From the IMG/VR virus record IMGVR_UViG_3300045988_147517, positions 32,001 to 96,000 of that record: a stretch of 64,000 bases of DNA; one strand, given 5' to 3'. Every line of letters starts with the position of its first letter. The first letter of the stretch is position 1. The notes under the pieces are model-generated. The model was not told where the DNA came from. It saw only the letters and a program-made list of their open reading frames with translations, and searched no databases. The translations under genes and the position numbers were made by a program. This DNA comes from a virus. Positions 1,789-56,550 of this stretch are shown here, one piece after another.

Positions 1789-2139
1789 CTACACTAAATG
1801 AATACAAAGTATTCCAATCTCATCATCGACACGAACAGAATCCACAATTTTGTTCAATAAGTTAGGGTTAAAAGCATAGTCTATGACATCAAAATTACAC
1901 ACGTCAAAATCATTAATGCCAAGTTCAAACCAATGGTGCCACTTACTACTTTCGCTATTATAGTCCGTCAAATAAATACGAACAAGAAGGCAATCTTGCC
2001 TACCTTCTTCTGTCTCTCTATCAGAAATATAATTCCTAAAATTATACAACATTAAGAATTCTCGGAGTGTGATTGCAAAACCACACTCCTCAAGCACAAA
2101 TTCTTTAGTATATTCCCCTGATTCAAAGTTTAATTCCAT
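1789..2139 (-). CDS. hypothetical protein
   Basis: 116-aa ORF whose start overlaps the RNR stop (TAATG). Confidence 0.5.
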   Translation of the reverse strand: MELNFESGEYTKEFVLEECGFAITLREFLMLYNFRNYISDRETEEGRQDCLLVRIYLTDYNSESSKWHHWFELGINDFDVCNFDVIDYAFNPNLLNKIVDSVRVDDEIGILCIHLV

Positions 2140-5100
2140 TAATCACACCCACTATAGCCGCAATCATCGTTAATGCAATGACCGCAACCACCTTCCGCAA
2201 CATAGGTTCTCTGTCCACATTTTGGACAAATTCCTAAATTGCTATTCTCCACTTCATTCTTTAGGTTTGTAACACCGCTAAGGAAATCTGTCAATTCTTT
2301 CATAGTGTTCTGTTCTTCACAAGTTTTACAGCGCGGCTCTGGGATATCAAAAACTCTAGAAACCGCTTCATTCACAATCTCTTCTTCACTATAATCATCA
2401 TCAATCAACTCTTCTTTGATTTGATTTGCCATCTCTTGCAATGCGATTCCCACTGCGGCAGGACAGCAATTCCCCGGCGAAACATCATGTTTAGTCGCCC
2501 TTCGCACCATATAACTAACGCAACCCGGGCAACTCTTTGCTTGGTCTACAATTCCCTCTACTGTTCCACCAAGGCGCATCGCATAAGAAATCATGCGAGA
2601 GCCAAATACCATCCAAGAATTACAGCCGCCCTCTGAGCCTTTGCTTAAAAATGTTTCGCAAAGTTCGCCATCTACTGGGTCAAAGAAAGCTGTTGTGTGT
2701 AAAGAGCCACACCCAGTAACAAGTTTGTGTTTTCTTCCCACAACATCGTCATAAACTTGAACCACATCACCTCGATTAAGTACCTGTAGAGGACGGGTTT
2801 CTTCTTTTGGCGGCTCTTCTTCTTGGTTGTTCACAAGGACACCAGCCCGGTCACAGCCATCTCTATAAACTGTAATGCCTTTAAGGCCTTGTTTCCACGC
2901 CTCATAGTATAATTCAAATACATCTTTAACTGTGGTATATTCAGGGAGATTTACTGTAGAACTAATTGATGCATCGATATGTTTTTGCCAAGCCGCCTGC
3001 ATAGCAATACGTTCTTTATACGGAATCATTGGCGCTGTTACAAACCAACTAGGTAAATCCGCTTCATTATCAATATTATTTTCCTGCATATATTCTTCTA
3101 CAATTGGAGTATATACTTTATACCAATACTCTTGACCATGAAGTGATTCTGTTTTTCTCATATAAGAATTGGCGAAAATGGGTTCCATCCCACCGGATAC
3201 ACCTAGCATTGTGCTAGTACTGCCCGTTGGGGCCACAGTCAACAGTTGCAAATTTCTCAACCCATATTTACGAATATCTTCATATAATTTGTCTGTTACA
3301 TGTGAATTTAAGAAAGGAGAATCTAGCACCGCGCCAGAAAACCTCGGGGCTGGGCCGAATTCTTTTGCTAACTCCATAGATGATTCGAGAGCGCATGAAA
3401 CGATGAATTCACCAATATTATCAGCTAATTTTAAAGACTCCTCACTTCCGTATCTTATTTTCAATTTAATCAGTAAGTCAGCCCATCCCATAACTCCTAG
3501 GCCGATTTGCCTGTAATTTCTTACACTTTCACGTTGATATTCTAGGGGGTGTAATTCCAACCCTTCATCTAAAACTTCATTCAAATAAATTACTGCATTT
3601 TTGACAGTAAATTTCAAAGAATCCCAATCAACTTTTCCATCTTTTTCAAATTGCGCCAAGTTAATTGAGCCAAGTAAACAACTACCTCCTTCTGGTAATG
3701 GTTCTTCTGCACCTTACCACACATAGTTTCCTATGCCATCTAATATAGATGTTGTAGTCTGGACTATATCATCCGTTATTTTATAAAAATAACAGGTGGG
3801 CGCTGGACAATAAATTGCCACTTAGTCTCTGAACCTTCCCCTGTTCGGGGCTTGGATGCTGATTGCCCAATCCATACATTTTTTAACATTCACGCCTAGA
3901 TTTATTTCATTCTTACGTTGTAGTATGTATGGCTCTAAGGGGTTTCCAGCAGTTCACCCACTTTTAAATCCGCATACACTTTACGGATTAACCCCACCAT
4001 ATTGAAAATCAGGGTCTTCACTTAATAAATTATAGTCATTAATTCTATCCCAGAATAATAATCCGGGTTCAGCCTGCCGCCAATTCATCTCTGCTAAACG
4101 CATAAATACATCTTGAGCATTAATTACTTTGGTAATTTCTTCTCCTGTCTCTTGACGATAATATTTTAATGTATATTCTTCATCATTGATAACAGCATTC
4201 ATAAATTCATCTGTTACTTTAATTGAGATATTTGCCTTAGTAACTTTTCCAGCCTCCGATTTTAAATCAATAAAATCTTCAAGGTCTGGATGGCTACAAT
4301 CAAGGCTAATCATCAATGCCCCCAATATGGACTATCTCTTACCACTAATCTAGTGGCTCGGGCGCTAATGTAGTCTTATTGTTATCCTCAACTACTAGTC
4401 TCTGCACGTCCTATATACCTTTTACATTATATAGTTTCGCTCAGGGTTCTTGGGTCTTCCCTGAATTCACCCAATTCAAGACGCAGGGCATTAGCTTTGT
4501 TATACTTTCTATATAATACAATAAATGAATCGTTAGGATATATATAATCTAAAAATTTTAAAACATCTTTTTTGCTAGAAAATCCTAATATAAAACAATC
4601 TTCTTTTCCTTTTGGCTTTATCTTAGATGATACTCCAACCTCATCTATTAAAACATTCTGAACACCTTCTAATAAACGGTATTGAGAAGTAAATGAAATT
4701 CTTTGCCATATCCTATTTCTGTCTTTCCTTCTTCCCCAAGTAATACACCCATCTCCATCAAAAAACCCAAGAATTAAATATCTTTTAAGGTCTTTTCTTA
4801 CAATTGGCAAATGACGGCTGTTCTTTTTTCCACCATATTTATTAATATCTGTAAGTATATTTTTATTATATATTGTATATCTTGCTCTTGGGAACCTCCT
4901 AGATTCCCTATCTAAGTATGTGGTTTCATGAACATTTCCACCAATAATTTGAGATATATAATATAGTATTTCTTTATCAGCTAATGAAACAGATAACTCA
5001 ACACACTTATCTCCAATGTATCCATCCGCTAATATAAATCCTAAGATATATGCTTTTTCTGGGGTATCAATCTTATTAAACATGTATTCATTTTTATACT

Positions 5101-15083: not shown

Positions 15084-15163
15084 ATTTAGGCACATTTTCA
15101 CGCTTCTCGCTCAAGCACTACAATAAGTACAGTATCAACGAGCTATCCCCGTCCTAACAGCGG
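15084..15163 (-). ncRNA. TnpB-associated guide-scaffold RNA (omega-RNA-like), orphan copy A
   Basis: Minus-sense CCGCUGUUAGGACGGGGAUAGCUCGUUGAU-[ACUGUA CUUAU UGUAGU]-GCUUGAGCGAGAAGCGUGAAAAUGUGCCUAAAU. It is homologous to the RNA directly downstream of tnpB and has no ORF. Confidence 0.7.
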
Positions 15164-15300
15164 TTCTTGCTAACGATTTGTCAATCTTTGATTAACTCCT
15201 TTTCTCTCTGGGAATCAAATTCAAAATCCTCATTCGATTCTGGTATTTCATAAGGGTCATGGTCATAGCACCACATACAACCATCACATTCCTTTGTTCC

Positions 15301-17676: not shown

Positions 17677-17707
17677 TTTGTTCTCCTTTTTTATATAAAT
17701 TTTAAAA

Positions 17708-17785
17708 ATTAAATATAATTCATGTTAACTTTAAACAATGGTAAAAGTCAATCAAATTTAAATACATTCTAATTTAAACACAGAT
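17708..17785 (-). repeat. two degenerate copies of the CRISPR-like repeat downstream of scaffold copy B
   Basis: Plus-strand 17756-17785 ATTTAAATACATTCTAATTTAAACACAGAT and 17708-17737 ATTAAATATAATTCATGTTAACTTTAAACA, compared with the consensus ATTTAAATACATCTCATGTTAAACACAAAC. Confidence 0.5.
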
Positions 17786-17850
17786 TCAACGCTTCTCGCT
17801 CAATAACCTTACGGTTAAGTATCAACGAGCTAACCCCGGTTTAACCTCGG
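17772..17850 (-). ncRNA. TnpB-associated guide-scaffold RNA, orphan copy B, with its own promoter
   Basis: Minus-sense CCGAGGUUAAACCGGGGUUAGCUCGUUGAUAC-[UUAACC GUAA GGUUA]-UUGAGCGAGAAGCGUUGAAUCUGUGUUUAAAU. It starts about 7 nt after a perfect -10 box. Confidence 0.7.
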
Positions 17851-17857
17851 TTCTTTG

Positions 17858-18264: not shown

Positions 18265-18492
18265 ATTCAAATACATCTCGTGTTAAACACAAACTTTGGC
18301 ACTTGATGTCTATTTTTTCTGGAAATTAAAATTTAAATGCATCTCATGTTAAACACAAACCCCGGCATCTATTACCGGAGACAAACAAATAGTAAGATTT
18401 AAATACATCTCATGTTAAACACAAACCCTAATCGTCTATATCTGCGCCTTTTAGAATATCTAATTTAAATACATCTCATGTTAAACACAAAC
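18265..18492 (-). CRISPR. CRISPR-like mini-array: 4 x 30-nt repeats, 3 x 36-nt spacers
   Basis: Repeats are at 18265-18294 (2 mismatches), 18331-18360 (1 mismatch), 18397-18426 and 18463-18492, with an exact 66-nt period. In crRNA sense the repeat is GTTTGTGTTTAACATGAGATGTATTTAAAT, containing the hairpin ACAU-GAG-AUGU. The spacers are unique. Confidence 0.75.
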
Positions 18493-18513
18493 TATAGTAT
18501 TTATCTCATTCTC

Positions 18514-18591
18514 ATTACGCTAACATTTGATGCTTCTCACTCGATAGTCTAATGACTAAGCATAAATGAGCTATCCCCGGTTTAACCTCGG
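18514..18591 (-). ncRNA. guide-scaffold RNA (omega-RNA / tracr-like), copy C, immediately 3' of tnpB
   Basis: It begins 11 nt after the tnpB stop: CCGAGGUUAAACCGGGGAUAGCUCAUUUAUGCU-[UAGUC AUUA GACUA]-UCGAGUGAGAAGCAUCAAAUGUUAGCGUAAU. The 3' boundary is uncertain. Confidence 0.7.
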
Positions 18592-18602
18592 TTGGTGGTA
18601 AG

Positions 18603-19751
18603 TTAATTTACCAGCCGCTTTCCTTCTTTTAGAATATTTTTAGCGGCATTTATATCCCTATCCTCTTTGTAGCCACAAACCGGGCATACAAAGGTTTTTT
18701 CGGATAAAATATTCTCTTCTATTACATGTTCACACTTATGGCACGTCTTTGAGCTTGGGAAAAATGTATTTACTTGTACATATTTATGGCCATATTCTTC
18801 TGCTTTATACGCTAACATTTGGCAGAAATTAAAGTACCCTATATCGGTAATAGCAGAATTAAAATTTTTCTTTGTTCTATTTAAAAACCCTTCTTTCTCT
18901 TTATTCTGTTTCATCATTTCTTGCAATTTAAGTTTCTCAACCGCAATAATTTTATTATCTCTCGCAATCTTCCTACTCAAATTATGTGCGAAATATGCTC
19001 TTTGTCTAGCAATTTTCTGATGAACTTTCGCTACTTTAATACGTTGTTTTTCGTAATTTTTACTACCACGTTGACAATGACTTAATTTGCGTTGCTCTCT
19101 GGCTAAACGTTCTTTGCTTTTCTTATAGTAGTTAGGATAATCTGGAATACTTCCTTTATTATCCACAAAGTAATCTCGTGATGAAAAATCAAGCCCGATG
19201 GATTGGGATTTCCCTTTCTTCTGTTTCATTTTAAATTCAATGCAGAAGGCAATATAGTATTCCCCTGATGGTGTCCTAGAAAGTGTTGCATCACATATTT
19301 TTGCATCATCTGGAATTGGCCTATCAACAATCATTTTGACGGTTGTTGACAATTTTGGAATTTTAACTCTATTACCTTCAATACGCAACCCATTACCGCC
19401 AACTGTATTTCTCGTTTTAAAGCTATCCCTACATCTACCACGCTTCTTAAATTTAGGAAATCCGGGCTTTTCCCCATTTTTTAATCTTCTAAAAAAGTTT
19501 TTATACGCCTGTTCTAAATCCCGCTGAACAAAATTTAAGGCATGTGCATCCACTTCTTTTAACCAAGTATTATCTGCTTTATATGAAGCGTAGCTCGTCT
19601 TTAATGACTTCCCCGTCTCTTCATAATGCTTTATTTTGTCAGCAAGCATAGCATTCCAAATCCATCTGCAAGCGCCAAATGTTTTATTTAAATATTCTCT
19701 CTGTTCTTTATTTGGGTAGATACGATATTTATAACCTCTAACTACTAACAT
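18603..19751 (-). CDS. tnpB: TnpB-like RNA-guided RuvC nuclease (IS200/IS605 OrfB family), stand-alone
   Basis: Contains YKYRIYPNKEQ, RuvC-I IGLDFS, RuvC-II IAVEKL, the zinc ribbon CHKCEH..CPVCGY and RuvC-III DRDINAAKNI. The protein is 382 aa. Confidence 0.9.
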   Translation of the reverse strand: MLVVRGYKYRIYPNKEQREYLNKTFGACRWIWNAMLADKIKHYEETGKSLKTSYASYKADNTWLKEVDAHALNFVQRDLEQAYKNFFRRLKNGEKPGFPKFKKRGRCRDSFKTRNTVGGNGLRIEGNRVKIPKLSTTVKMIVDRPIPDDAKICDATLSRTPSGEYYIAFCIEFKMKQKKGKSQSIGLDFSSRDYFVDNKGSIPDYPNYYKKSKERLAREQRKLSHCQRGSKNYEKQRIKVAKVHQKIARQRAYFAHNLSRKIARDNKIIAVEKLKLQEMMKQNKEKEGFLNRTKKNFNSAITDIGYFNFCQMLAYKAEEYGHKYVQVNTFFPSSKTCHKCEHVIEENILSEKTFVCPVCGYKEDRDINAAKNILKEGKRLVN

Positions 19752-19779
19752 TTTCTTACCTCATCAACTTTATGTCTAT

Positions 19780-19808
19780 ATTATATCATGTTGGCGCTTA
19801 CTTGTCAA
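19780..19808 (-). promoter_or_regulatory. consensus promoter of tnpB
   Basis: TTGACA (19808-19803), 17 nt (containing GCGCCAA, as in other promoters in this window), TATAAT (19785-19780). Confidence 0.7.
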
Positions 19809-27148: not shown

Positions 27149-27555
27149 TCCCTTACCCCCTTCTTAATTTCCTCGAATTTCGCCAACATTTCGGGCACTG
27201 CCGCCACCGCCTCCTCTTCGGTCGGGAAACAGTTACCCATGTTGAGCATGGCAAGAGAGGCTTCTTCGTCTTTATAGAAGTGGCACCATGTCACGCGTCC
27301 ATTAAGAGAGACGGTATAATATTTACCATCATCTTTCGGCTTCCAAGGGCGTTTCTGAATTGTGTATTCTCCGGTTAATAAATACCATAGTTGACTATAC
27401 GCCATGTCATCATCGTCATAATCAATAATTGAGTCATTCGTAAATCTATAAGGACTATAAGCGACAATACTTCCATTTTTATCCATAACATCAAATTTCT
27501 CCCCAATCTCTACGCCTAACATTTTTGCCACTTCTTGCATGTAGTTTTTATTCAT
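27145..27555 (-). CDS. hypothetical protein
   Basis: 136-aa ORF preceded by a structured leader and no obvious SD. Confidence 0.5.
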   Translation of the reverse strand: MNKNYMQEVAKMLGVEIGEKFDVMDKNGSIVAYSPYRFTNDSIIDYDDDDMAYSQLWYLLTGEYTIQKRPWKPKDDGKYYTVSLNGRVTWCHFYKDEEASLAMLNMGNCFPTEEEAVAAVPEMLAKFEEIKKGVRE

Positions 27556-27871
27556 CTAATCTTTGGCAATGAAACTCCCTACTTCTATAAGTAGGAGAGG
27601 AATTGCCTTCTCCTTTCTTCCTGTAAATAACTCATTCTAGCTTTTAATAATTTTAATTTTTTACAACTTATACCCGTTAGTCTAGTCAACAAGGGCTTTT
27701 CAAGCCCCCACTTCAACAAGACCTATCTTGTAAGTAGTGGGTTATTGACTTTAAATCTCCTTTACCTTTCTTATTTTAACTGGTTTTCTTTTCTTGGGTC
27801 TACGCCTTTCTTTCAAATCTTTTTCAGCTAGGCGCTCTTCTTCTTGTTCCATAATATAATTAAAGTATTCT

Positions 27872-28405
27872 TCACTCGTTATCGGTAGATTCTTTTTCTT
27901 GTAACTCATCGTTCTTCCTAAAAATAATTAGCTTTACATGTTCGCTATCATCAAAAACTTCATGTAATATCTTACTTACAATTTTCCAATCTCCTCCACC
28001 ACATCCGCAACCTAGCTTATATGGTACTCCAATTGTCCAAATATCATCTTTTTTTGAAAAAGTAAGGGCCTCACAATGTTCTCTTAACAATATTAGTGCC
28101 TCTTTAAGCGCCCTATAATCTGTCAACCTTTCACCATTTGGGGCATGATGAAACTGGGCGAATAAATTAGCAACCAAGTCTTTTCTGCCCCCATACCGTT
28201 CCACTTCGACTATCTGAACAACGCCCATCATTGATTCAGATAGACCATATTCTTTGCAGAATTTATTATATTGCTTCAATAAATCTTTGTAAATATACCT
28301 TAAATCTCTCGAAAGTCCGGCGTGCATTTTCCCTTGACAATTTACCTGATGGGCGATAATATCAACTTTAGATTTAATTAAATCTCCATCTTTCATTTCT
28401 ACCAT
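27872..28405 (-). CDS. macrodomain protein, TARG1/DarG-like (ADP-ribose removal)
   Basis: DGDLIKSKVDIIAHQVNCQGKMHAGLSRDL matches the GDL..D.iaH.vNC.G.MGaGiA pattern of TARG1/DarG-type macrodomains. Confidence 0.55.
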   Translation of the reverse strand: MVEMKDGDLIKSKVDIIAHQVNCQGKMHAGLSRDLRYIYKDLLKQYNKFCKEYGLSESMMGVVQIVEVERYGGRKDLVANLFAQFHHAPNGERLTDYRALKEALILLREHCEALTFSKKDDIWTIGVPYKLGCGCGGGDWKIVSKILHEVFDDSEHVKLIIFRKNDELQEKESTDNE

Positions 28406-28406
28406 T

Positions 28407-28625
28407 TTAATCCCTCATAAGCCTTTTAATATCTCTTACATTCAAACTCAATACTATATTCACATTATCAGGCGGATTCATATTATTTACAAACCGCTTC
28501 AAACACCCAGTCGAACAAAAATAATGGCCGTGCGACCGCACCCCGTTATTGGAGATTTCTTGAATCGTCAACTGAATCATATTACAGGTACAACCCGCTT
28601 CTCCACTACAAAACTCACACTTCAT
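28407..28625 (-). CDS. small Cys-rich protein
   Basis: Start placed at ATG 28625, 9 nt after AAGGAG. Confidence 0.5.
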   Translation of the reverse strand: MKCEFCSGEAGCTCNMIQLTIQEISNNGVRSHGHYFCSTGCLKRFVNNMNPPDNVNIVLSLNVRDIKRLMRD

Positions 28626-28637
28626 AATATTCACTCC

Positions 28638-28727
28638 TTAGTTAATTAAAATACCGCCAACATATTCAATATATTCGTATGCCGCCTTTGGCGATTCCAC
28701 AACATCATTTTTGCCAATCGTTTCCCA
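28638..28727 (-). pseudogene. orphaned ancestral 3' end of the upstream gene (diverged duplicate of 28826-28915)
   Basis: Ungapped hand alignment gives 68 of 90 nt identical to the real 3' end. It translates as WETIGKNDVVESPKAAYEYIEYVGGILIN*, against WDAIAKDDVIESPEKAYEYIETVGGILIN*. It retains the original stop, RBS and junction to the next gene. Confidence 0.75.
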
Positions 28728-28802
28728 ATTTAGGTGTACTAATGTACTTCTCACTCGATAGCATAGCTAAGCATAAATGAGCTAACCCCGTCCTAACAGC
28801 GG
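28728..28802 (-). ncRNA. TnpB-associated guide-scaffold RNA, orphan copy D
   Basis: Minus-sense CCGCUGUUAGGACGGGGUUAGCUCAUUUAUGCU-[UAGC UAU GCUA]-UCGAGUGAGAAGUACAUUAGUACACCUAAAU. It is followed directly by the orphaned gene fragment. Confidence 0.7.
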
Positions 28803-28825
28803 TTATTGTTGGTGCTATATAATTA

Positions 28826-29248
28826 TTAATTGATTAATATGCCGCCAACAGTTTCAATATACTCATAGGCTTTTTCAGGCGATTCTATAACATCATCTTT
28901 AGCAATCGCATCCCAAGAATATTTACCCGCATATCGGGTAAAAGCCTTTTGAAAATCAACACCTTTTTTATTTTTATACAATACAATTTCATCCCACATT
29001 CTTTGACTACTCACCACAATATTATCATGCGCCATGTTTACTATTGTATTCGGCCCCATAACTCTATACCCTTTAACGTCATGCGGGATTGTCCCAATGC
29101 CATGGCAATAATGACAAACACTTTGTAAAAGGGGGTATCCCGCTTTTAAACCACGAGCATACCCCTTACCACCACATTTCGGGCAACATACTTCATCTAC
29201 GCGAAACGTTCCTTCTTTAATATAATATACTTCGTCTCCTAGTTCCAA
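28826..29248 (-). CDS. DnaJ-type zinc-finger (CxxCxGxG) protein
   Basis: Contains CPKCGGKGY and CHYCHGIGT. Probable TTG start behind AAGGAGGG. Confidence 0.55.
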   Translation of the reverse strand: MELGDEVYYIKEGTFRVDEVCCPKCGGKGYARGLKAGYPLLQSVCHYCHGIGTIPHDVKGYRVMGPNTIVNMAHDNIVVSSQRMWDEIVLYKNKKGVDFQKAFTRYAGKYSWDAIAKDDVIESPEKAYEYIETVGGILIN

Positions 29249-29275
29249 AACTACAAAACCCTCCTTTAAAATTTA

Positions 29276-29350
29276 TGGTGCGGGGACTGGGAATCGAACC
29301 CAGTTTTCAGGCGTATAAGACCCGCGCACTAACCGATGTACTATCCCCGT
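29276..29350 (-). tRNA. tRNA-Ile (anticodon UAU)
   Basis: Hand-folded cloverleaf: acceptor ACGGGGA/TCCCCGC, anticodon arm CGGGT-CTTATAC-GCCTG, T arm CTGGG-TTCGATT-CCCAG, and an encoded CCA. Position 1:72 is an A.C mismatch. Confidence 0.75.
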
Positions 29351-29383
29351 ATAAAAGGGAAATACATCCCTTTTTATAAACAT

Positions 29384-29412
29384 ATTATAACATACTGTTG
29401 GCGCTTTGTCAA
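29384..29412 (-). promoter_or_regulatory. consensus promoter upstream of tRNA-Ile
   Basis: TTGACA (29412-29407), 17 nt (contains GCGCCAA), TATAAT (29389-29384). Confidence 0.65.
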
Positions 29413-30047
29413 TCAGTTTCGCCCGGAATAATATACTCAAACAGTTCTTCACAGTCAGCGCACATAACAGAAATATTTGCTTTTCCTCTTACAACCGCGC
29501 CACATGTTGGACATTGGTAATATGGTCTAGGTTTTCTAGGTTTCTTTGGCTCTTCACCTTCACTTGCGGCTAAATCTGACAATTGCCTGTTAATATTAAA
29601 AACGTCGCTGATATTAAGCGTATCAATAAATTCTATAAATTCGTCTGATGGCGCTGTCTCTGAATAACCAATTCCATCAACCTTATTAATAATCAAATCT
29701 CTCTTTTCAGCTTTTGCTTTAAACCGCTTATTATGATAGCGGTTACCTCGGGAAGTATCTTTAATATCATTCTCCCAGCAATAAATATGCACCATCTCAT
29801 GCGCCAGTGTAGAAATGATATCATATTTATCAAGGTTTAAATACTCGGCTGTAATGTTTAACTCATAGTATCTTTTCCCACTAATATCAATCCACCGATT
29901 TTTTGAAGCCCACCCATAAGCATCTCCACTTACTACTTTCTTACTTTGAATTGTAATAATTACTAGCGGCAATTCACCATCATAATATTTTTCGTTTAGA
30001 GCGTTATATACTCTTTCTAACTCATTATAAATTTCTGCCAAATTCAT
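29409..30047 (-). CDS. SprT-like zinc metalloprotease
   Basis: Contains HEMVH (HExxH) and a C-terminal CPTCG..CADCEE zinc ribbon. Confidence 0.65.
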   Translation of the reverse strand: MNLAEIYNELERVYNALNEKYYDGELPLVIITIQSKKVVSGDAYGWASKNRWIDISGKRYYELNITAEYLNLDKYDIISTLAHEMVHIYCWENDIKDTSRGNRYHNKRFKAKAEKRDLIINKVDGIGYSETAPSDEFIEFIDTLNISDVFNINRQLSDLAASEGEEPKKPRKPRPYYQCPTCGAVVRGKANISVMCADCEELFEYIIPGETD

Positions 30048-30048
30048 T

Positions 30049-31314
30049 TCATTCGCCTTTCATATCATCAAAATTCCAAGCACCATAGGCCGGAGTGGAT
30101 TCAAAAATACCTTCTGGATACTTTTCACCATCTGCAAGTGGAACAATTTTATCAATATATATTTCATTAAATAAAATTCCTGTTTTATTTAACGCACTAA
30201 ATGGAGATATATTCATATCGGCTCGTTTATTAACATGCATAAATACAAAAGCCCTGTCTTTGTTACAAGAATATGTTGAATGTGGCGCGCCAATGATAGA
30301 ACTCCCATATATGTTATTATAATATTCTCCCTCTTTATATTCAAATGAATTATCATAAAATGATACGTATTTATCCCCATCAATCTTCACATATTTCACA
30401 AATCTTAATGGGAAATTACAAGGTACTTGTTTTTCAATAGCATTGAGTCTTTTTATCATTATATCCCTTTTCGCGCTATCATTAAAAAAATAAGAACTGT
30501 AAAAATTATCGTCGAATAGGACAAACCTTTCCATTATATTGTCATTTTCTACTGTCCAATATATCTGTTTTCCCAAACAATATGAGACCAATAAATTATA
30601 GTTAATACAATATTTTGTGAAAAAATTTATACAATTAGATTGTCCTTGTTTTTCTTCAAATAATTCCATTGCCCTATTAATATCGAATGGCTCATCCCGA
30701 ATTTCTTCAAAAATATCTTCCGATTCTTCACCATACATTCCGCCTATTTGCTCAGATAAGGCATCATAACTTTCGATATTTACATTTTTCATAGACAATC
30801 CTATTTTATATAACGTTGATGTGGGAATACTATATCCTCTCTGCCTGTATTTTTCCATACGTTTTAAAGATGTAAGCGGATAAGGTGTCTTTACATTATA
30901 ATTTAGGCATCGTTTAAGATTATCTGCAATAAAATTATCATCTACGATAAATTTATCTTCATCAAAATCATATAGCCCCATATTAATAGTAAAATCAAAA
31001 CTTTCAAAAATACTTTGTGGAGTAGGATACGCCTTTAAAGTAACCACTTGCACCATCTTATTGCCTCCACAATAATCTTTAAAACTGATAGCCCTTTTAG
31101 AACACACTCTAAAATTCCCACTAGCCCATGATGACCTTAAAAAAGACTCCATATCTTTTTCTGTTTTAAAATATACATCATAGTCATTAATCTCGTTTCC
31201 AGTATAAACAGAAGTAATAGCGCCACCAGCAATCATTGCATGGTTCAGTTTTAATAAATCATATAAATCGTCACTCATTTCATCAAATAGAACTTCTTTT
31301 TTATCTTTACTCAT
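30049..31314 (-). CDS. hypothetical protein, possible nucleotidyltransferase
   Basis: Start moved to MSKDKK behind GAGGAGG. MIAGGAITSVYTGNEINDYDVYF resembles the GG..(x)n..DxD motif of pol-beta-fold nucleotidyltransferases. The evidence is weak. Confidence 0.35.
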   Translation of the reverse strand: MSKDKKEVLFDEMSDDLYDLLKLNHAMIAGGAITSVYTGNEINDYDVYFKTEKDMESFLRSSWASGNFRVCSKRAISFKDYCGGNKMVQVVTLKAYPTPQSIFESFDFTINMGLYDFDEDKFIVDDNFIADNLKRCLNYNVKTPYPLTSLKRMEKYRQRGYSIPTSTLYKIGLSMKNVNIESYDALSEQIGGMYGEESEDIFEEIRDEPFDINRAMELFEEKQGQSNCINFFTKYCINYNLLVSYCLGKQIYWTVENDNIMERFVLFDDNFYSSYFFNDSAKRDIMIKRLNAIEKQVPCNFPLRFVKYVKIDGDKYVSFYDNSFEYKEGEYYNNIYGSSIIGAPHSTYSCNKDRAFVFMHVNKRADMNISPFSALNKTGILFNEIYIDKIVPLADGEKYPEGIFESTPAYGAWNFDDMKGE

Positions 31315-32278
31315 CTGCGAGTTCCTCCTCGTCCCCTTCGCACCAAAGGATACTACTTGTAATTTCATCTTGGTAATTTTTATCAACCATCTGTACGTAG
31401 CGCATCGTCATTTCAACGCTTTGATGCCCTAACATCGTTTGAATATTTTTCACATTCGTACCATGAACAGATTGTAAAGTGGCGGCAGTACTTCTTAATT
31501 TGTGGGGTGTGATATCTTTGGTGATTCCAGCGCGTTCACATACCCGCTTTAATTCTTTTGAAACATTTCTACCATCTACTTTGCCACCAGATGTCGATGT
31601 AAAAAGATAATTATTATTCCCAGACATGCGTTCTGTTGGAACAATTCTTTCGCCATCTCGATATACGGGGTAACCAAACCTATCAAGCACTACTTCACCA
31701 TTTTGTTTAACAATTTCTTTTCTACCGATATAATCATTAATATATCTCTTACATACCCAGTTAATTGGGATATAGCGAAGTTCATTACGTTTTGCTTTGC
31801 GAATATTAATGCGGCTCTTTTCAAAGTCCACATCTTCTAATTTTAAATCAGTCACTTCGCTAATACGCATTCCTGTATTAATCATCAGGTAAAATATTGC
31901 CTTTTGGCGCTTTGTTCTACAATTCTTAATAAGTAGTTTTGCTTCACTTTCAGTTAAATAAGTCATTGGTTTAGGTTGAGTTTTACGAGAACTAACATGA
32001 ATATCATGGTCAATATAACCCTCACCATATAAAAAATGAATAAATTTTAACACTGGCGCGGTGTAAGTATTAATTGTGCTATCCGTAAGTCCATCCTCAT
32101 CAAGCATAATCCTATATTCTTGAATGTCCTTTTTCTTCAGTGTCTCAATCTGAGTAAAATTCTTAATCCCCATACGGTCGAAAAATTTGTTTAAATTTTT
32201 TTCATATTCAAAAAGAGTCTTATCAGCGGCACCATCAGCTTTTAAATCCTGAAGAAACAACTTGACTTCTAACATCAT
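31307..32278 (-). CDS. tyrosine recombinase / integrase
   Basis: Contains TGMRISEV (Arg), HKLRSTAAT (HxxR) and LGHQSVEMTMRYV (His, Tyr). Confidence 0.85.
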   Translation of the reverse strand: MMLEVKLFLQDLKADGAADKTLFEYEKNLNKFFDRMGIKNFTQIETLKKKDIQEYRIMLDEDGLTDSTINTYTAPVLKFIHFLYGEGYIDHDIHVSSRKTQPKPMTYLTESEAKLLIKNCRTKRQKAIFYLMINTGMRISEVTDLKLEDVDFEKSRINIRKAKRNELRYIPINWVCKRYINDYIGRKEIVKQNGEVVLDRFGYPVYRDGERIVPTERMSGNNNYLFTSTSGGKVDGRNVSKELKRVCERAGITKDITPHKLRSTAATLQSVHGTNVKNIQTMLGHQSVEMTMRYVQMVDKNYQDEITSSILWCEGDEEELADE

Positions 32279-49625: not shown

Positions 49626-49731
49626 GAGATGATTTAAGCGTTCTACGTAGAGATGTGAAAAAAAAAGATTCTAAAATACACTTTCTTCGAAACCGTATTT
49701 TCTCGTTTCATTTTTACACAAATTTGGCAAG

Positions 49732-49812
49732 TTATCCACAGGGATGTTGATAAGTCTAAAGTTATCCACAGAAGTTATCCACAGGCTGTTGATAACTAGG
49801 CACTTATCCACA
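49732..49812 (+). promoter_or_regulatory. DnaA-box cluster (putative origin or DnaA-binding region)
   Basis: Four perfect TTATCCACA boxes at 49732, 49762, 49775 and 49804, plus two inverted TGTTGATAA boxes at 49746 and 49788. Confidence 0.7.
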
Positions 49813-49822
49813 GGTAGCGCAA

Positions 49823-49850
49823 TAAAAAAAAAGGCGTTAAGCCTTTTTTC
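49823..49850. terminator. bidirectional terminator
   Basis: A-run, AAGGC-GTTAA-GCCTT, T-run. It overlaps the stop of the helicase-like gene. Confidence 0.65.
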
Positions 49851-51186
49851 GAGATTTATTAAAGTAGCGGGATTTTTGGTAGGGCACGTAGGCGATTTCT
49901 TCATCGTTGAGCCATTGAGTGAAAAGCGTTCGCATACGCAGGGATGGAATGTAGAGGTAAATTTCTTCATTATTTCTTATGGCGCTTCTCCATACCCATT
50001 GAACCATATCAGCCAGCGCGAATTTATCTTGGTCGACGGCAATATTTCTAATTGAAAAAAGTTGTTTAATAAAAGGGTTCATGTAGCGGTTTACCATGTA
50101 GGCGCAATGTGTGCGGTTTCCATATTCGTTTGTCGCTTTAGCATTGAGTGGAACAAAAGCCCTTCTACTAATGCGCGCTGGCTTCACTTGCTTATTAAAA
50201 GATTTAAAGGTGGTATACATTCGTTGTTTTGGTGGCGCGCTTCTCAGAAAATTAAAGATACATCGGCTTACATCCTCAAGTTCCTCTGGATGTGAGGCAT
50301 ACCAATTATTACTAAGCGTACTGGAGAACTCCTGATTATTATTTGCTACATAAGGTCGACCAATTTCATTAAGGCTATCACTCTGGCAAATGTGGATAAG
50401 CGGTTTTACATTTTTCTTCCATTCTCTCTCATAGTCTTGGTTAATGGTTGGAACAAAACAATATTGTCCATTTTGGCGCTCTGTGTGATAATATTCATAT
50501 GTTATATCATAGAAGCGATAATAGTATGCCTGCATTTGATGTTCAAACATGTAGGTAAGGATAAAAACGTCATTAAAAATATCCTCTTCGAAAACCTGTA
50601 CGGGGAACGACCAAAATAAGGCACTATCATTAATATAGTAGAGCAGTCCATTATCGGCCAAATGTTTCATGTGTTGGTAGCGTGATAAATCAGCCCATTC
50701 TTCTTTTGACCAATTCACTTGAAAATCTGGGTCGATAGATACATATCCTTTGCGAATAAAAGATGCCATATCCTTTATTGTATGAAGTTGCCTTTCTCTT
50801 TCGGTGAAGTTGGATTCGGAATACTTACATAAGTCATATTCATTAATAACGTTTATGACCTCGTCTAGAAATAAGATATAATTCCCACCTCTTAAGATAT
50901 CGAGCAACTCTTTGTCTACATAAGAAAAGAGCGCATGTGTACAGACGATATTTTCTCCTTTTGCAAGTAGCGCTTTTAGGTGCCTTCCCTTGGTTCCAAA
51001 TTCTTCCTCAGATGGTTGAACAAAATTCTTTGATTCACATTCTTTTATAACCCTATCACATTCGGTTAGGAATGGTGTTACAAACATAATATTGGTATCA
51101 TTCCCTAACATATTAATATGATGAATGGCGGCACTTGTTTTGCCGCTACCCATCGGAGAGTCAACAACTTTAATTCTTCTTTTCAT
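49837..51186 (-). CDS. P-loop NTPase, helicase-like (DEAD/DEAH-type N-domain)
   Basis: Walker A SPMGSGKTS and Walker B-like ILFLDEV, with AAGGAG RBS. Confidence 0.55.
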   Translation of the reverse strand: MKRRIKVVDSPMGSGKTSAAIHHINMLGNDTNIMFVTPFLTECDRVIKECESKNFVQPSEEEFGTKGRHLKALLAKGENIVCTHALFSYVDKELLDILRGGNYILFLDEVINVINEYDLCKYSESNFTERERQLHTIKDMASFIRKGYVSIDPDFQVNWSKEEWADLSRYQHMKHLADNGLLYYINDSALFWSFPVQVFEEDIFNDVFILTYMFEHQMQAYYYRFYDITYEYYHTERQNGQYCFVPTINQDYEREWKKNVKPLIHICQSDSLNEIGRPYVANNNQEFSSTLSNNWYASHPEELEDVSRCIFNFLRSAPPKQRMYTTFKSFNKQVKPARISRRAFVPLNAKATNEYGNRTHCAYMVNRYMNPFIKQLFSIRNIAVDQDKFALADMVQWVWRSAIRNNEEIYLYIPSLRMRTLFTQWLNDEEIAYVPYQKSRYFNKSRKKA

Positions 51187-56381: not shown

Positions 56382-56455
56382 GCCACTATAGCATAACGGT
56401 AGTGCGAATGATTTGTAATCATTTTATCGGGGTTCGACTCCTCGTAGTGGCTCCA
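56382..56455 (+). tRNA. tRNA-Thr (anticodon UGU)
   Basis: Acceptor GCCACTA/TAGTGGC, anticodon arm AATGA-TTTGTAA-TCATT, T arm CGGGG-TTCGACT-CCTCG, encoded CCA. Confidence 0.85.
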
Positions 56456-56472
56456 TTTTATAATCAAACCAA

Positions 56473-56550
56473 CCGTTGTTAGGACGGGGATAGCTCGTTG
56501 ACACTTAACCATAAGGTTATTGAGCGAGAAGTACGTTAGTATGCCTAAAT
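56473..56550 (+). ncRNA. TnpB-associated guide-scaffold RNA, orphan copy E (plus strand)
   Basis: CCGUUGUUAGGACGGGGAUAGCUCGUUGACAC-[UUAACC AUAA GGUUA]-UUGAGCGAGAAGUACGUUAGUAUGCCUAAAU. It starts 17 nt after the tRNA-Thr CCA end, in the same orientation as local transcription. Confidence 0.7.

What the first reader, a model, noticed from the sequence alone, without database searches (positions are those of the whole stretch)
28638..28915. Scaffold copy D lies between a recoded and an ancestral copy of a gene 3' end: the architecture of an RNA-guided homing cassette
The last 90 nt of gene 28826-29248 (28826-28915) are duplicated at 28638-28727. My ungapped alignment gives 68 of 90 identical positions. 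Both copies translate to related peptides ending GGILIN*. The downstream copy still carries the original stop, RBS and junction to the next gene (28625).

Between the two copies lie a short linker and scaffold D. The RNA ends ..CCUAAAU and runs directly into the ancestral copy (UGGGAAACGAUUGGCAAAAAUG..). That sequence is therefore exactly where a TnpB guide would lie.

The functional upstream copy differs at 5 of the first 20 guide positions (UGGGAUGCGAUUGCUAAAGAUG), so it would escape targeting.

The inference is as follows. The cassette, made of a recoded gene end plus the scaffold, directs cleavage of uninterrupted ancestral-type alleles in co-infecting relatives. It is then copied in by homologous repair. 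This is the RNA-guided analogue of intronless homing by free-standing homing endonucleases, with a built-in rescue copy.
Basis: partly seen in the sequence, partly recalled or inferred. Interest (0 to 1): 0.9.

Follow-up and report, generated by a model that had tools for sequence, protein, structure and literature searches.

The report
Phage guide-RNA cassette with spare gene end
A 119-kb phage carries a TnpB nuclease plus five guide-RNA genes, and one of them sits between a replacement copy and the displaced original copy of a gene's last 90 bases, so that the RNA's guide is that original sequence; this looks like a natural RNA-guided weapon or gene drive aimed at sister phages, but cutting has not been shown.

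Summary
Bases 28826-28915 and 28638-28727 (minus strand) are 68/90 identical, far above chance. Between them lie a 21-nt linker and a 77-nt structured RNA.

That RNA is one of exactly five copies of a TnpB guide-RNA (omega-RNA) scaffold in the window. An apparently active ISDra2-like tnpB lies at 18603-19751. A covarying pseudoknot puts the guide start within 1-2 nt of the first duplicated base.

Relatives support much of the interpretation:
- One relative has no cassette, and its stop-RBS-next-gene junction matches the downstream copy, so that copy is the original one.
- The window's working copy has 14/45 changes (7 nonsynonymous codons) exactly over the guide-matching stretch, against 6% elsewhere in the gene.
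- The common sister lineage replaced most of the old copy with a second guide. That guide matches the window's next gene 20/20, while its own allele differs at the flank and two positions.

Not shown: the TAM, any cleavage, any inheritance bias, or any uninterrupted allele that matches the guide perfectly.

My best reading (about 0.5) is RNA-guided exclusion or homing between sister phages. It is a new variant of known kinds and of high interest.

The parts
28826..29248 (-). Gene of 140 aa (zinc-ribbon-like CxxC motifs, function unknown). Its last 90 nt are the cassette-linked copy of the gene end.
   Evidence: ORF. Weak DnaJ_CXXCXGXG match. Only one 90%-identity cluster of 13 sequences exists among about 15 billion proteins.
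28826..28915 (-). Working ('replacement') copy of the gene's 3' end, including the stop codon. It differs from the guide at positions 6, 7, 14, 15 and 19.
   Evidence: Against the sister lineage, the first 45 nt have 14 differences (1 synonymous and 7 nonsynonymous codons) and the last 45 nt have 2.
28805..28825 (-). 21-nt linker between the stop codon and the scaffold. It is conserved in all cassette-bearing alleles.
28728..28804 (-). Scaffold D, an orphan TnpB guide-RNA (omega-RNA-like) scaffold with loop TTAGG pairing to tail CCTAA (pseudoknot).
   Evidence: Covariance model hit of 75 bits, E 5e-24. Consensus structure with 8 of 14 pairs showing compensatory changes. Pseudoknot covariation in 13/13 scaffolds.
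28708..28727 (-). Inferred guide segment of the D RNA (first 20 nt of the displaced copy): TGGGAAACGATTGGCAAAAA.
   Evidence: It lies immediately 3' of the scaffold. The pseudoknot ends 2 nt before it, as in ISDra2 omega-RNA (PMC10097598). Guide length is inferred.
28638..28727 (-). Displaced original ('ancestral') copy of the gene's 3' end, with the native stop, RBS and junction to the next gene.
   Evidence: Junction type confirmed by the cassette-free relative L025.
28407..28625 (-). Next gene (72 aa). It contains the site matched by the sister lineage's second guide.
28567..28586 (-). TGTAATATGATTCAGTTGAC, a 20/20 match to the guide that follows a partial scaffold at the same locus in the common sister lineage. 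It is preceded here by GTACC.
29384..29412 (-). Perfect sigma-70-type promoter (TTGACA-17-TGnTATAAT) upstream of tRNA-Ile, the 140-aa gene, scaffold D and the next gene. Scaffold D has no consensus promoter of its own.
29276..29350 (-). tRNA-Ile, first gene of the putative transcription unit that contains the cassette.
18603..19751 (-). tnpB, 382 aa, ISDra2-like. The RuvC D/E/D residues and the zinc-finger cysteines are conserved. It is the presumed partner of all five scaffolds.
   Evidence: Pfam HTH_OrfB_IS605, OrfB_IS605 and TNB. E about 1e-58 to ISDra2 TnpB structures, with catalytic residues aligned. 53 synonymous against 14 nonsynonymous codon changes versus the sister lineage.
18514..18593 (-). 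Scaffold copy directly 3' of tnpB.
18265..18492 (-). CRISPR-like array of four 30-nt repeats (GTTTGTGTTTAACATGAGATGTATTTAAAT) and three 36-nt spacers. The repeat's 3' end resembles the scaffold's 3' end.
   Evidence: Sister strains carry different spacers.
17772..17852 (-). Orphan scaffold copy preceded by a TTGACA/TATAAT promoter. In relatives it is followed by a short array.
15084..15165 (-). Orphan scaffold copy.
56471..56550 (+). Orphan scaffold copy starting 15 nt after tRNA-Thr.

Best explanation
Scaffold D is a trans-acting guide-RNA gene for the phage's own TnpB nuclease. It belongs to a small cassette (a replacement 3' end of the 140-aa gene, a linker and the scaffold) that lies upstream of the displaced original 3' end.

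Proposed mechanism, all steps inferred:
- The strong promoter at 29412-29384 transcribes tRNA-Ile, the gene, scaffold D and the next gene.
- TnpB binds and trims the scaffold and uses roughly the first 16-20 nt of the displaced copy (TGGGAAACGATTGG...) as its guide.
- The phage's own genome is safe at both matching sites. The displaced copy is preceded by the scaffold end (..CCTAAAT) rather than a TAM. The working copy keeps the natural 5' flank but has mismatches at guide positions 6, 7, 14, 15 and 19.
- In a mixed infection, a relative whose gene end still matches the guide is cut there. Its genome is either lost (exclusion) or repaired from the cassette-bearing genome.
- The gene body and the displaced copy with its downstream genes serve as ready-made homology arms, so repair copies in the replacement end and the guide gene (homing).

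The locus belongs to a wider system: tnpB, a short CRISPR-like array and four orphan guide genes. Guides at this locus turn over. The common sister lineage lost most of the old copy and gained a guide against this phage's allele of the neighbouring gene.

Shown: the anatomy, the presence/absence polymorphism, RNA structure covariation, conserved catalytic residues and the localised divergence.
Inferred: expression, the TAM, cleavage, exclusion and homing.
For: (1) The duplication is real, and the guide position coincides with its first base.

(2) The scaffold is a genuine TnpB RNA.
- There are five copies in the window, at 75-85 bits.
- One lies directly 3' of tnpB here, and copies follow tnpB stop codons in 8 unrelated viral contigs.
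- 8 of 14 helix pairs show compensatory changes.
- Loop-tail pseudoknot covariation holds in 13/13 scaffolds. This matches the ISDra2 omega-RNA architecture (PMC10097598).

(3) TnpB looks active and selected. The D/E/D residues and the zinc finger align with ISDra2 TnpB. Codon changes against the sister lineage are 53 synonymous and 14 nonsynonymous.

(4) The cassette-free allele L025 has stop + RBS + next gene like the downstream copy.

(5) Divergence of the working copy is concentrated on the guide-matching 45 nt. There are 14/45 differences, 7 of them nonsynonymous codons. The 333 nt upstream have 21 differences (2 nonsynonymous codons) and the next 45 nt have 2 (binomial p about 2e-5). Four other alleles all keep the consensus-type sequence there.

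(6) In the sister lineage, the working copy differs from the old copy in the first 38 nt only at guide positions 9, 12 and 15. All three changes are synonymous.

(7) Reciprocal targeting. The sister lineage has, after scaffold D, a partial scaffold followed by TGTAATATGATTCAGTTGAC. This matches window 28567-28586 at 20/20. Its own allele has ACC changed to GTA in the codon immediately 5' of the site, plus 2 mismatches.

(8) All cassette-bearing alleles share the cassette-proximal half of the replacement end. The distal half varies by lineage, as expected for recombination or co-conversion tracts.

(9) Precedents:
- TnpB-driven homing of IS elements, and TnpA-independent spread in plasmids (PMC10055086; the plasmid result as summarised in review PMC13565253; preprint 10.1101/2025.02.20.638934 seen as an abstract only).
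- Intronless homing and marker exclusion by T4 Seg/Mob enzymes (PMC13565253).
- A phage TnpB-like nuclease with a short array acting in conflicts between mobile elements (bioRxiv 10.64898/2026.04.20.719267).
Against: - No perfect target was found. No uninterrupted allele with the guide's sequence is present in a 15-billion-protein collection, since no cluster member ends ..EYVGGILIN. None was found in JGI metagenomes, GTDB genomes, IMG/VR or GenBank phages.
- Known alleles differ from the guide at 3 positions (sister lineage) or 6 of 22 (cassette-free L025).
- The TAM is unknown. The target flank ATTCT and the second target's flank GTACC do not match TTGAT, the TAM of the closest characterised homologue and also the left flank of tnpB here. 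The ISDra2 TAM-reading residues Y52, K76, F77 and Q80 are not conserved, so this neither refutes nor supports the target.
- Only one of five scaffolds has the duplication.
- Most relatives retain scaffold D with only an 18-26-nt remnant of the old copy.
- Some relatives lack tnpB altogether.
- The origin of the duplication is unexplained. A single illegitimate recombination could have produced it.
- No array spacer found a target anywhere.
Confidence: 0.5

Rival explanations
1. Recombination scar with a now-idle guide. An orphan omega-RNA cassette, together with the neighbouring gene end, was joined to a related phage genome by a single illegitimate or homeologous crossover. This left a 90-nt duplication by accident. 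The D RNA may be made, but it has no target in the current population. The hyper-diverged patch was simply imported from an unsampled divergent phage.
For: - No perfect target allele exists in any collection searched.
- The locus is mosaic. The window differs from the sister lineage by about 6-8% left of the cassette and about 17-25% right of it.
- Most relatives have lost most of the old copy without losing the scaffold.
- Only 1 of 5 scaffolds shows the architecture.
Against: - The junction falls within 1 nt of the guide start, which is a 1-in-many coincidence for a random crossover.
- The divergence burst sits exactly on the guide-matching 45 nt.
- The sister lineage shows the same logic at the same locus with a 20/20 guide against this phage's neighbouring gene, plus an altered self allele.
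- The displaced copy shows no decay: its frame is open and it is identical in all 5 contigs of this type.
Confidence: 0.27
2. Pure exclusion weapon without homing. The five guide genes and the array form a phage-borne, CRISPR-like system that destroys competing relatives or other mobile elements. The duplicated gene end is only the way this guide was captured, and the cassette does not spread by repair.
For: - A tnpB plus array architecture with strain-specific spacers.
- Precedent in phage Cas12r arrays that target other mobile elements.
- The review notes that homing enzymes can also simply kill competitors (PMC13565253).
Against: - The cassette is flanked by perfect homology arms, namely the gene body on one side and the old copy plus downstream genes on the other. 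That is exactly the substrate needed for copying by repair.
- The cassette-proximal half of the replacement end is shared across lineages whose distal halves differ, which looks like conversion tracts.
- Exclusion and homing are not mutually exclusive.
Confidence: 0.13
3. Regulatory or structural role. The D RNA with TnpB acts as an RNA-guided repressor, as TldR proteins do. Alternatively, the retained old copy (which forms a 38-codon ORF, 28638-28754) exists to keep translational coupling and the RBS context of the next gene.
For: - The old copy keeps the stop codon and RBS spacing to the next gene.
- TnpB relatives have been domesticated as repressors in phages (PMC10705468, listed).
Against: - The RuvC catalytic residues are intact and the gene is under purifying selection.
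- Sister phages keep only 18-26 nt of the old copy and still have the same RBS, so the full copy is not needed for expression.
- A guide identical to its own flanking DNA without a TAM does not bind it in known TnpB systems.
Confidence: 0.05
4. Integrative-element logic. A small element integrated by site-specific recombination into the 3' end of the gene and carried a substitute gene end. Prophages that integrate into tRNA genes or icd do this.
For: - The order 'gene with element-borne end, element, displaced original end' is what such integrations leave.
- A tyrosine integrase gene lies 2.4 kb away, at 31307-32278.
Against: - The element is only 188 nt and encodes nothing but the RNA.
- The two copies share no long identical core. 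They are 76% identical with scattered mismatches.
- The left junction varies between lineages, as expected for homologous rather than site-specific recombination.
Confidence: 0.03

Closest known systems
TnpB/omega-RNA homing of IS200/IS605 transposons (Meers et al. 2023, PMC10055086; TnpB-driven IS spread in plasmids, bioRxiv 10.1101/2025.02.20.638934)
   Same: - An ISDra2-like TnpB with intact RuvC residues.
- A guide RNA whose scaffold ends at the element's right boundary, so that the guide is the flanking DNA.
- The element-bearing allele is immune because the insertion separates flank from target.
- Spread by break-induced homologous repair.
   Different: - No tnpA and no LE/RE hairpins.
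- The guide gene is 9 kb from tnpB and acts in trans.
- The unit that would be copied contains no nuclease.
- It sits inside a coding region and brings a substitute gene end, so a second, TAM-adjacent copy must escape through mismatches.
- The arena would be mixed phage infections rather than sister chromosomes or plasmid copies.
Intronless homing and localised marker exclusion by free-standing homing endonucleases of T-even phages (SegF, SegG, MobE, SegB; reviewed in PMC13565253)
   Same: - A cassette wedged between conserved phage genes.
- A target in the neighbouring conserved gene of related phages.
- The self allele is protected by sequence polymorphisms.
- Co-conversion of flanking markers.
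- Presence/absence polymorphism among close relatives.
   Different: - Recognition would be by a 77-nt RNA plus guide rather than by a protein.
- The nuclease is encoded elsewhere.
- The target specificity is written in the cassette as a displaced copy of the target itself.
- A rescue copy of the gene end is part of the cassette.
Phage-encoded type V CRISPR-like systems and TnpB-to-Cas12 intermediates (Cas12r of Thermus Lalka phages, bioRxiv 10.64898/2026.04.20.719267; TranC, as summarised in PMC13565253)
   Same: [quoted passage not shown]
- The repeat resembles the 3' part of the ancestral guide scaffold.
- A proposed role in conflict between mobile elements.
   Different: - The protein here is a 382-aa canonical-size TnpB much closer to ISDra2 TnpB (E about 1e-58) than to LaTranC (E about 1e-17).
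- Full-length single-guide scaffolds and an array coexist.
- Four guide genes are scattered around the genome.
- Scaffold D is not in an array.
Synthetic CRISPR gene drives with a recoded rescue copy (home-and-rescue and cleave-and-rescue designs)
   Same: A guide against the wild-type allele of a gene, a cleavage-resistant replacement copy of the same gene segment in one cassette, and homology arms on both sides.
   Different: Those drives are engineered in diploid eukaryotes. This one would be natural, in a virus, with the nuclease unlinked. The comparison rests on my own knowledge, not on a tool result.

Membership tests
TnpB omega-RNA (OMEGA guide RNA) | Scaffold encoded at or just beyond the 3' end of a tnpB gene | tested here: met
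   Met for the family. Copy 18514-18593 begins 9 nt after the tnpB stop. Related scaffolds follow tnpB stops in L003, L004, L005, L008, L011, L015, L017 and L018. Scaffold D itself is an orphan 9 kb away.
TnpB omega-RNA (OMEGA guide RNA) | Conserved secondary structure with a pseudoknot next to the guide | tested here: met
   RNAalifold gives 14 pairs, 8 with compensatory changes. Loop-tail complementarity is kept through different sequences in 13/13 scaffolds and ends 2 nt before the guide. This compares with the ISDra2 pseudoknot at -5 to -3.
TnpB omega-RNA (OMEGA guide RNA) | A catalytically competent TnpB in the same genome | tested here: met
   Three Pfam TnpB domains. D, E, D and the CxxC...CxxC motif align with ISDra2 TnpB. 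Purifying selection is evident. Enzymatic activity was not tested.
TnpB omega-RNA (OMEGA guide RNA) | Target preceded by the nuclease's TAM | tested here: inconclusive
   The flanks of the two inferred targets are ATTCT and GTACC, and the tnpB left flank is TTGAT. The ISDra2 TAM readers K76, F77, Q80 and Y52 are replaced, while T123 is kept. No protospacer was found from which to derive the TAM.
IS200/IS605 transposon | tnpA (Y1 HUH transposase) and LE/RE terminal hairpins flanking the element | tested here: not met
   tnpB starts 11 nt after a phage promoter region and is followed by the scaffold and an array. Its neighbours are phage ORFs that are also present in tnpB-less relatives. The window was not scanned exhaustively for tnpA.
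Homing-endonuclease cassette (intronless homing) | Presence/absence polymorphism at the same site among close relatives | tested here: met
   L025 lacks the cassette. The window type, the common type and a third type carry it.
Homing-endonuclease cassette (intronless homing) | Self allele resistant through polymorphisms at the recognition site | tested here: met
   5 mismatches in 20, two of them in the TAM-proximal 12 nt. A local divergence burst sits on that stretch. Resistance itself is inferred.
Homing-endonuclease cassette (intronless homing) | Nuclease encoded within the mobile cassette | tested here: not met
   The 188-nt unit encodes only the RNA and the gene end. tnpB is at 18603-19751.
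Homing-endonuclease cassette (intronless homing) | Cleavage of the cassette-free allele and biased inheritance in mixed infection | not testable with these tools
   This needs biochemistry and phage crosses.
CRISPR-Cas type V / TranC-like | Repeat-spacer array next to the effector, with spacers that vary between strains | tested here: met
   Four 30-nt repeats and three 36-nt spacers at 18265-18492. Relatives carry different spacers. This applies to the system, not to scaffold D.
CRISPR-Cas type V / TranC-like | Adaptation module (cas1/cas2) or demonstrated spacer acquisition | not tested
   No cas genes were noticed near the array. The window was not scanned with cas profiles.
Site-specific integrative element carrying a substitute gene end | Identical att core at both junctions and an integrase belonging to the element | tested here: not met
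   The copies are 76% identical with scattered mismatches and no long identical core. The element is 188 nt. The left junction differs between lineages.

The most novel reading that the evidence does not exclude
A natural RNA-guided gene drive between viruses. Guide-only selfish cassettes use a nuclease encoded elsewhere in the phage genome. Each cassette carries both a displaced copy of the competitor's allele, which serves as guide and homology arm, and a cleavage-resistant rescue copy. Guides are renewed by capturing pieces of sister phages' alleles, giving a CRISPR-like arms race without Cas1 or Cas2. It would run on a TnpB that is visibly in transition from single-guide omega-RNA to repeat-spacer arrays.
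Probability: 0.35. Interest if true: 0.93.

Novelty: new variant of a known kind. Interest (0 to 1): 0.8.

Why it matters
TnpB is known to keep transposons in bacterial genomes by cutting the empty site. Protein homing endonucleases are known to bias inheritance in mixed phage infections. This locus would join the two.

It would be an RNA-programmed, trans-acting homing or exclusion cassette in a virus, with a built-in resistant copy of the interrupted gene end. Engineers arrived at the same design for 'recoded rescue' gene drives.

It would also give a testable natural case of how new guides arise without an adaptation machine, namely by capturing a competitor's allele next to a scaffold. The same genome offers a living intermediate between single-guide TnpB and CRISPR arrays.

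If cleavage fails, the locus is still a clean example of orphan omega-RNA genes in a phage. It would, however, lose most of its interest.

Tried and rejected
**Searches for relatives of the locus**
- Megablast of the locus and tblastn of the 140-aa protein against GenBank phages found no match.
- The gene exists only in one 13-member protein cluster.

**Searches for an uninterrupted ancestral-type allele**
- The JGI metagenome pattern scan gave only two chance hits.
- The GTDB genome scan gave none.
- IMG/VR holds only the common cassette-bearing type.

**Searches for protospacers of the array spacers and the other orphan guides**
- Nothing was found in the window or in the loci searched, 8 to 49 of those held depending on the call, at up to 5 mismatches.
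- Nothing significant was found in GenBank phages.
- IMG/VR gave no exact seeds.
- The TAM therefore could not be derived.

**TAM by homology**
- The nearest characterised enzyme (ISDra2, TTGAT) has different TAM-contact residues.
- The nearest bacterial homologues are only 41% identical, so no IS boundaries could be transferred.
- A tentative 'T at -4, C at -2' rule fits both inferred targets and the altered self allele, but it rests on n = 2 and I do not rely on it.

**Other checks**
- No flanking duplication was found at the other four scaffolds.
- Rfam has no family for this RNA at gathering thresholds.
- I considered reading the 66 nt that are identical between lineages right of the cassette as a conversion tract. 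I rejected this as weak, because most of that stretch is conserved in all alleles, including the cassette-free one.
- Literature searches found no description of this architecture. The library is incomplete, so prior description cannot be excluded.
Full report
**1. The observation**

All genes of the region are on the minus strand. The last 90 nt of the 140-aa gene (28826-28915) and 28638-28727 are 68/90 identical without gaps. They translate to WDAIAKDDVIESPEKAYEYIETVGGILIN* and WETIGKNDVVESPKAAYEYIEYVGGILIN*. Similarity ends abruptly at TGGGA. A local alignment of the 150 nt after the scaffold against the 800 nt before it scores 46, against a maximum of 17 in 100 shuffles.

Between the copies lie a 21-nt linker and a 77-nt element ending CACCTAAAT. 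The downstream copy keeps stop + AGGAGTG + ATG of the next gene.

**2. What the intervening element is**

A covariance model built from 16 related sequences finds exactly five copies in the window, at 75-85 bits:
- 15084-15165 (-)
- 17772-17852 (-)
- 18514-18593 (-)
- 28727-28804 (-)
- 56471-56550 (+)

Nothing else scores above 11 bits.

One copy begins 9 nt after the stop of a 382-aa ORF (18603-19751) with the three Pfam domains of TnpB. That ORF is closest to ISDra2 TnpB among solved structures, at E about 1e-58. The RuvC Asp/Glu/Asp residues and the zinc-finger cysteines are aligned and conserved.

The same scaffold class follows tnpB stop codons in eight unrelated viral contigs. RNAalifold gives 14 pairs, of which 8 show compensatory double changes.

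A loop near the 5' end (positions 6-14) is complementary to the tail just before the guide in 13 of 13 scaffolds, through different sequences. Examples are TTAGG:CCTAA, TTGGG:CCTAA, TTAAAC:GTTTAA, GAACTA:TAGTTC, GGCGCA:TGCGTC and GACATA:TATGTC. This is the pseudoknot that defines TnpB and Cas12 guide RNAs. In ISDra2 it ends a couple of nucleotides before the guide (PMC10097598).

In scaffold D it ends 2 nt before TGGGAAACG. The guide position therefore coincides with the first duplicated base, within 1-2 nt. Scaffold D is a genuine, orphan TnpB guide-RNA gene.

It has no consensus promoter of its own. A perfect TTGACA-17-TATAAT promoter at 29412-29384 precedes tRNA-Ile, the 140-aa gene, scaffold D and the next gene. 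Expression as part of that transcript, followed by processing, is inferred.

**3. The wider system**

After tnpB and its scaffold come 21 nt and then four 30-nt repeats (GTTTGTGTTTAACATGAGATGTATTTAAAT) separated by three 36-nt spacers (18265-18492). The repeat's 3' end (a hairpin plus TTTAAAT) resembles the scaffold's 3' end.

Sister strains have the same layout with different spacers. Some strains keep the promoter and array but lack tnpB and its scaffold.

tnpB differs between lineages by 53 synonymous and 14 nonsynonymous codons, so it is under purifying selection. There is no tnpA next to it and no transposon ends. It starts 11 nt after a phage promoter region.

The genome is a phage of about 119 kb. 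It encodes ribonucleotide reductase (with a group I intron beside it), a DnaB-like helicase, a primase, an exonuclease and an integrase. It is known only from metagenomes.

**4. Relatives of the locus**

The 140-aa protein exists in a single cluster of 13 sequences. Five structures were recovered.

- Type W is the window itself, seen in five contigs from different samples and identical at the locus.
- Type C is the common type, present in more than 180 index blocks. It has the gene end, the linker and scaffold D. These are followed by TTGGAGAT, a partial scaffold (ATTGAGTAGGAAGTGCGTTAGCATATTTAAAT), the 24 nt TGTAATATGATTCAGTTGACATGG, and only the last 18 nt or so of the old copy before the RBS.
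- L049 is a deletion derivative of type C.
- A third cassette type has a diverged scaffold. Its contigs break inside the scaffold.
- Type U (L025, one contig) has no cassette. Its stop codon is followed directly by the RBS and the next gene.

Type U shows that the cassette is an insertion and that the downstream copy in the window is the original gene end.

All cassette-bearing alleles share the cassette-proximal 45 nt of the replacement end (..GCCTAYGAGTATATTGAAACTGTTGG..TTAATCAATTAA). The distal 45 nt differ by lineage, as expected if the cassette moves by homologous recombination with variable conversion tracts.

**5. Evidence that the guides matter**

(a) Divergence of the working copy. 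Window against type C in the 140-aa gene:

| Codons | nt differences | Synonymous codons | Nonsynonymous codons |
|---|---|---|---|
| 1-111 | 21/333 | 17 | 2 |
| 112-126 (guide-matching 45 nt) | 14/45 | 1 | 7 |
| 127-141 | 2/45 | 2 | 0 |

The binomial p for the middle row is about 2e-5. Four other alleles (type C, the third type, type U and the old copy) all keep the consensus WETI.K.DVV there. The only lineage that still carries a full guide against the consensus sequence is therefore also the only one whose working copy has moved away from it.

(b) Synonymous changes in type C. The working copy differs from the old copy in the first 38 nt only at guide positions 9, 12 and 15, all synonymous third positions.

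(c) Reciprocal targeting. The 20 nt that follow the partial scaffold in type C match the window's next gene exactly (28567-28586, preceded by GTACC). Type C's own allele has the codon immediately 5' of the site changed from ACC (Thr) to GTA (Val), plus mismatches at positions 3 and 17. Type U has ACA and three mismatches. A 20/20 match located about 100 nt from the cassette cannot be chance.

Two sister lineages thus each carry, at the same locus and in guide position, a piece of the other type's allele of an adjacent gene. Each also has a divergent self allele.

**6. What is missing**

- No uninterrupted allele carrying the window's guide sequence was found anywhere. Type C differs from the guide at 3 positions and type U at 6 of 22.
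- The TAM is unknown. The flanks of the two inferred targets are ATTCT and GTACC. TTGAT is the ISDra2 TAM, and it also lies left of tnpB here.
- The ISDra2 TAM-contact residues Y52, K76, F77 and Q80 are T, A, H and N in this protein, while T123 is kept. A different TAM is therefore plausible but unproven.
- No array spacer or other orphan guide found a target.
- Only scaffold D has a flanking duplication.
- Most relatives have lost most of the old copy, so this particular guide is dispensable for the cassette's persistence.
- How the duplication first arose is not explained by homing. A single illegitimate crossover joining the scaffold's 3' end to a relative's gene, followed by selection, is the simplest origin.

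**7. Best explanation and rivals**

Best explanation (confidence about 0.5): scaffold D is a trans-acting TnpB guide whose guide is the displaced original gene end. TnpB with D RNA cuts relatives that keep that sequence behind the native flank. The phage's own two copies are protected, one by lack of a TAM and the other by mismatches. The cut relative is then either lost or repaired from this genome, which copies in the replacement end and the guide gene.

Rivals:
- A recombination scar with an idle guide (about 0.27).
- Exclusion only, with no homing (about 0.13).
- A regulatory or translational-coupling role (about 0.05).
- Site-specific integration (about 0.03).

The full arguments for and against each are given in the structured fields.

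**8. Comparison with what is known**

The locus works like TnpB-assisted transposon homing (PMC10055086; spread in plasmids without TnpA, as summarised in PMC13565253 and in the abstract of bioRxiv 10.1101/2025.02.20.638934). It also works like the intronless homing of T4 Seg/Mob endonucleases (PMC13565253).

It is not a member of either family in the strict sense. There is no tnpA and there are no transposon ends. The cassette does not encode its nuclease.

The tnpB-plus-array context resembles phage Cas12r and TranC intermediates. The combination of a guide with a resistant rescue copy parallels engineered gene drives, a comparison that rests on my own knowledge.

A 2026 review treats transposon homing between co-infecting phages as a theoretical possibility only. 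I found no description of this architecture, within the limits of the library.

**9. Verdict**

The locus is a new variant of known kinds, and interest is high because the hypothesis is specific and cheap to test. It rests on anatomy and comparative patterns, not on demonstrated cleavage.

Noticed in passing
window 18265-18492 (-), with tnpB 18603-19751 and scaffold 18514-18593: A canonical-size TnpB (382 aa, ISDra2-like) is followed by its full scaffold and then a CRISPR-like array of four 30-nt repeats and three 36-nt spacers. The repeat looks like the 3' end of the scaffold. This may be a natural intermediate between single-guide omega-RNA and a split tracr/crRNA. Sister strains carry different spacers, and no targets were found.
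   Followed up: partly
L006 1-620, L038 and L041 (relatives), against window 18480-19800: Some sister phages keep the promoter and an array but lack tnpB and its scaffold. The junction TTGAT + TTAGTATAAT + GAGAAT.. retains the last 10 nt of the scaffold, which suggests deletion of the nuclease gene. Their guide genes would then depend on a TnpB supplied in trans, or be relics.
   Followed up: partly
L001 3522-3585, also L020-L022 and L046-L048; target at window 28567-28586 (-): The common sister lineage carries a partial scaffold plus a 20-nt guide identical to this phage's allele of the neighbouring 72-aa gene. Its own allele has a Thr-to-Val codon change (ACC to GTA) exactly at the 5' flank, plus two mismatches.
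   Followed up: yes
L023 about 1108-1113 and L024 about 1127-1132 (relatives); equivalent to window 28910-28915: Contigs from two independent samples have TGGGAA changed to TGGTAA. This is a nonsense mutation at position 4 of the guide-matching site and truncates the protein to 112 aa. It could be an escape mutation, or a sign that the last 28 residues are dispensable.
   Followed up: no
window 56382-56550 (+): One orphan scaffold starts 15 nt after tRNA-Thr, with a TATAAT-like hexamer in between. Co-transcription with the tRNA and release by tRNA processing is conceivable.
   Followed up: no
window 17700-17852 (-) against L006 1009-1270: The orphan scaffold at 17772-17852 has a consensus promoter. 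In relatives it is followed by its own short repeat-spacer array. In the window only a fragmentary repeat and an 18-nt spacer remain.
   Followed up: partly
window 3739-4020 (-): A group I intron (Rfam RF00028, 67.6 bits) lies next to the ribonucleotide reductase large-subunit ORF 2139-3659. It is a second, classical kind of homing-prone element in the same genome.
   Followed up: no
window 49729-49813: Tandem 42-nt units contain TTATCCACA (DnaA-box-like) motifs upstream of ORF 49837-51186. This may be a replication origin or a regulatory region.
   Followed up: no
window 28922-28942 (-): An 8-bp hairpin (TTTACCCG-ATATG-CGGGTAAA) lies inside the 140-aa gene and ends 6 nt before the guide-matching site. 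The stem carries a mismatch in the sister lineage, and its significance is unknown.
   Followed up: no
window 30049-31386 (-) and 31307-32278 (-): Just upstream of the cassette's operon lie a gene and a tyrosine integrase. The relatives' products of that gene carry a precomputed Pfam Gad2 (PF26128) hit, and it also matches a nucleotidyltransferase PHROG. A defence-like gene therefore sits next to the guide cassette.
   Followed up: no
window 27300-30100 against L020 and L021: Divergence between the window and the common lineage is about 6-8% left of the cassette and about 17-25% right of it. The cassette therefore sits at a mosaic boundary between differently related genome segments.
   Followed up: partly
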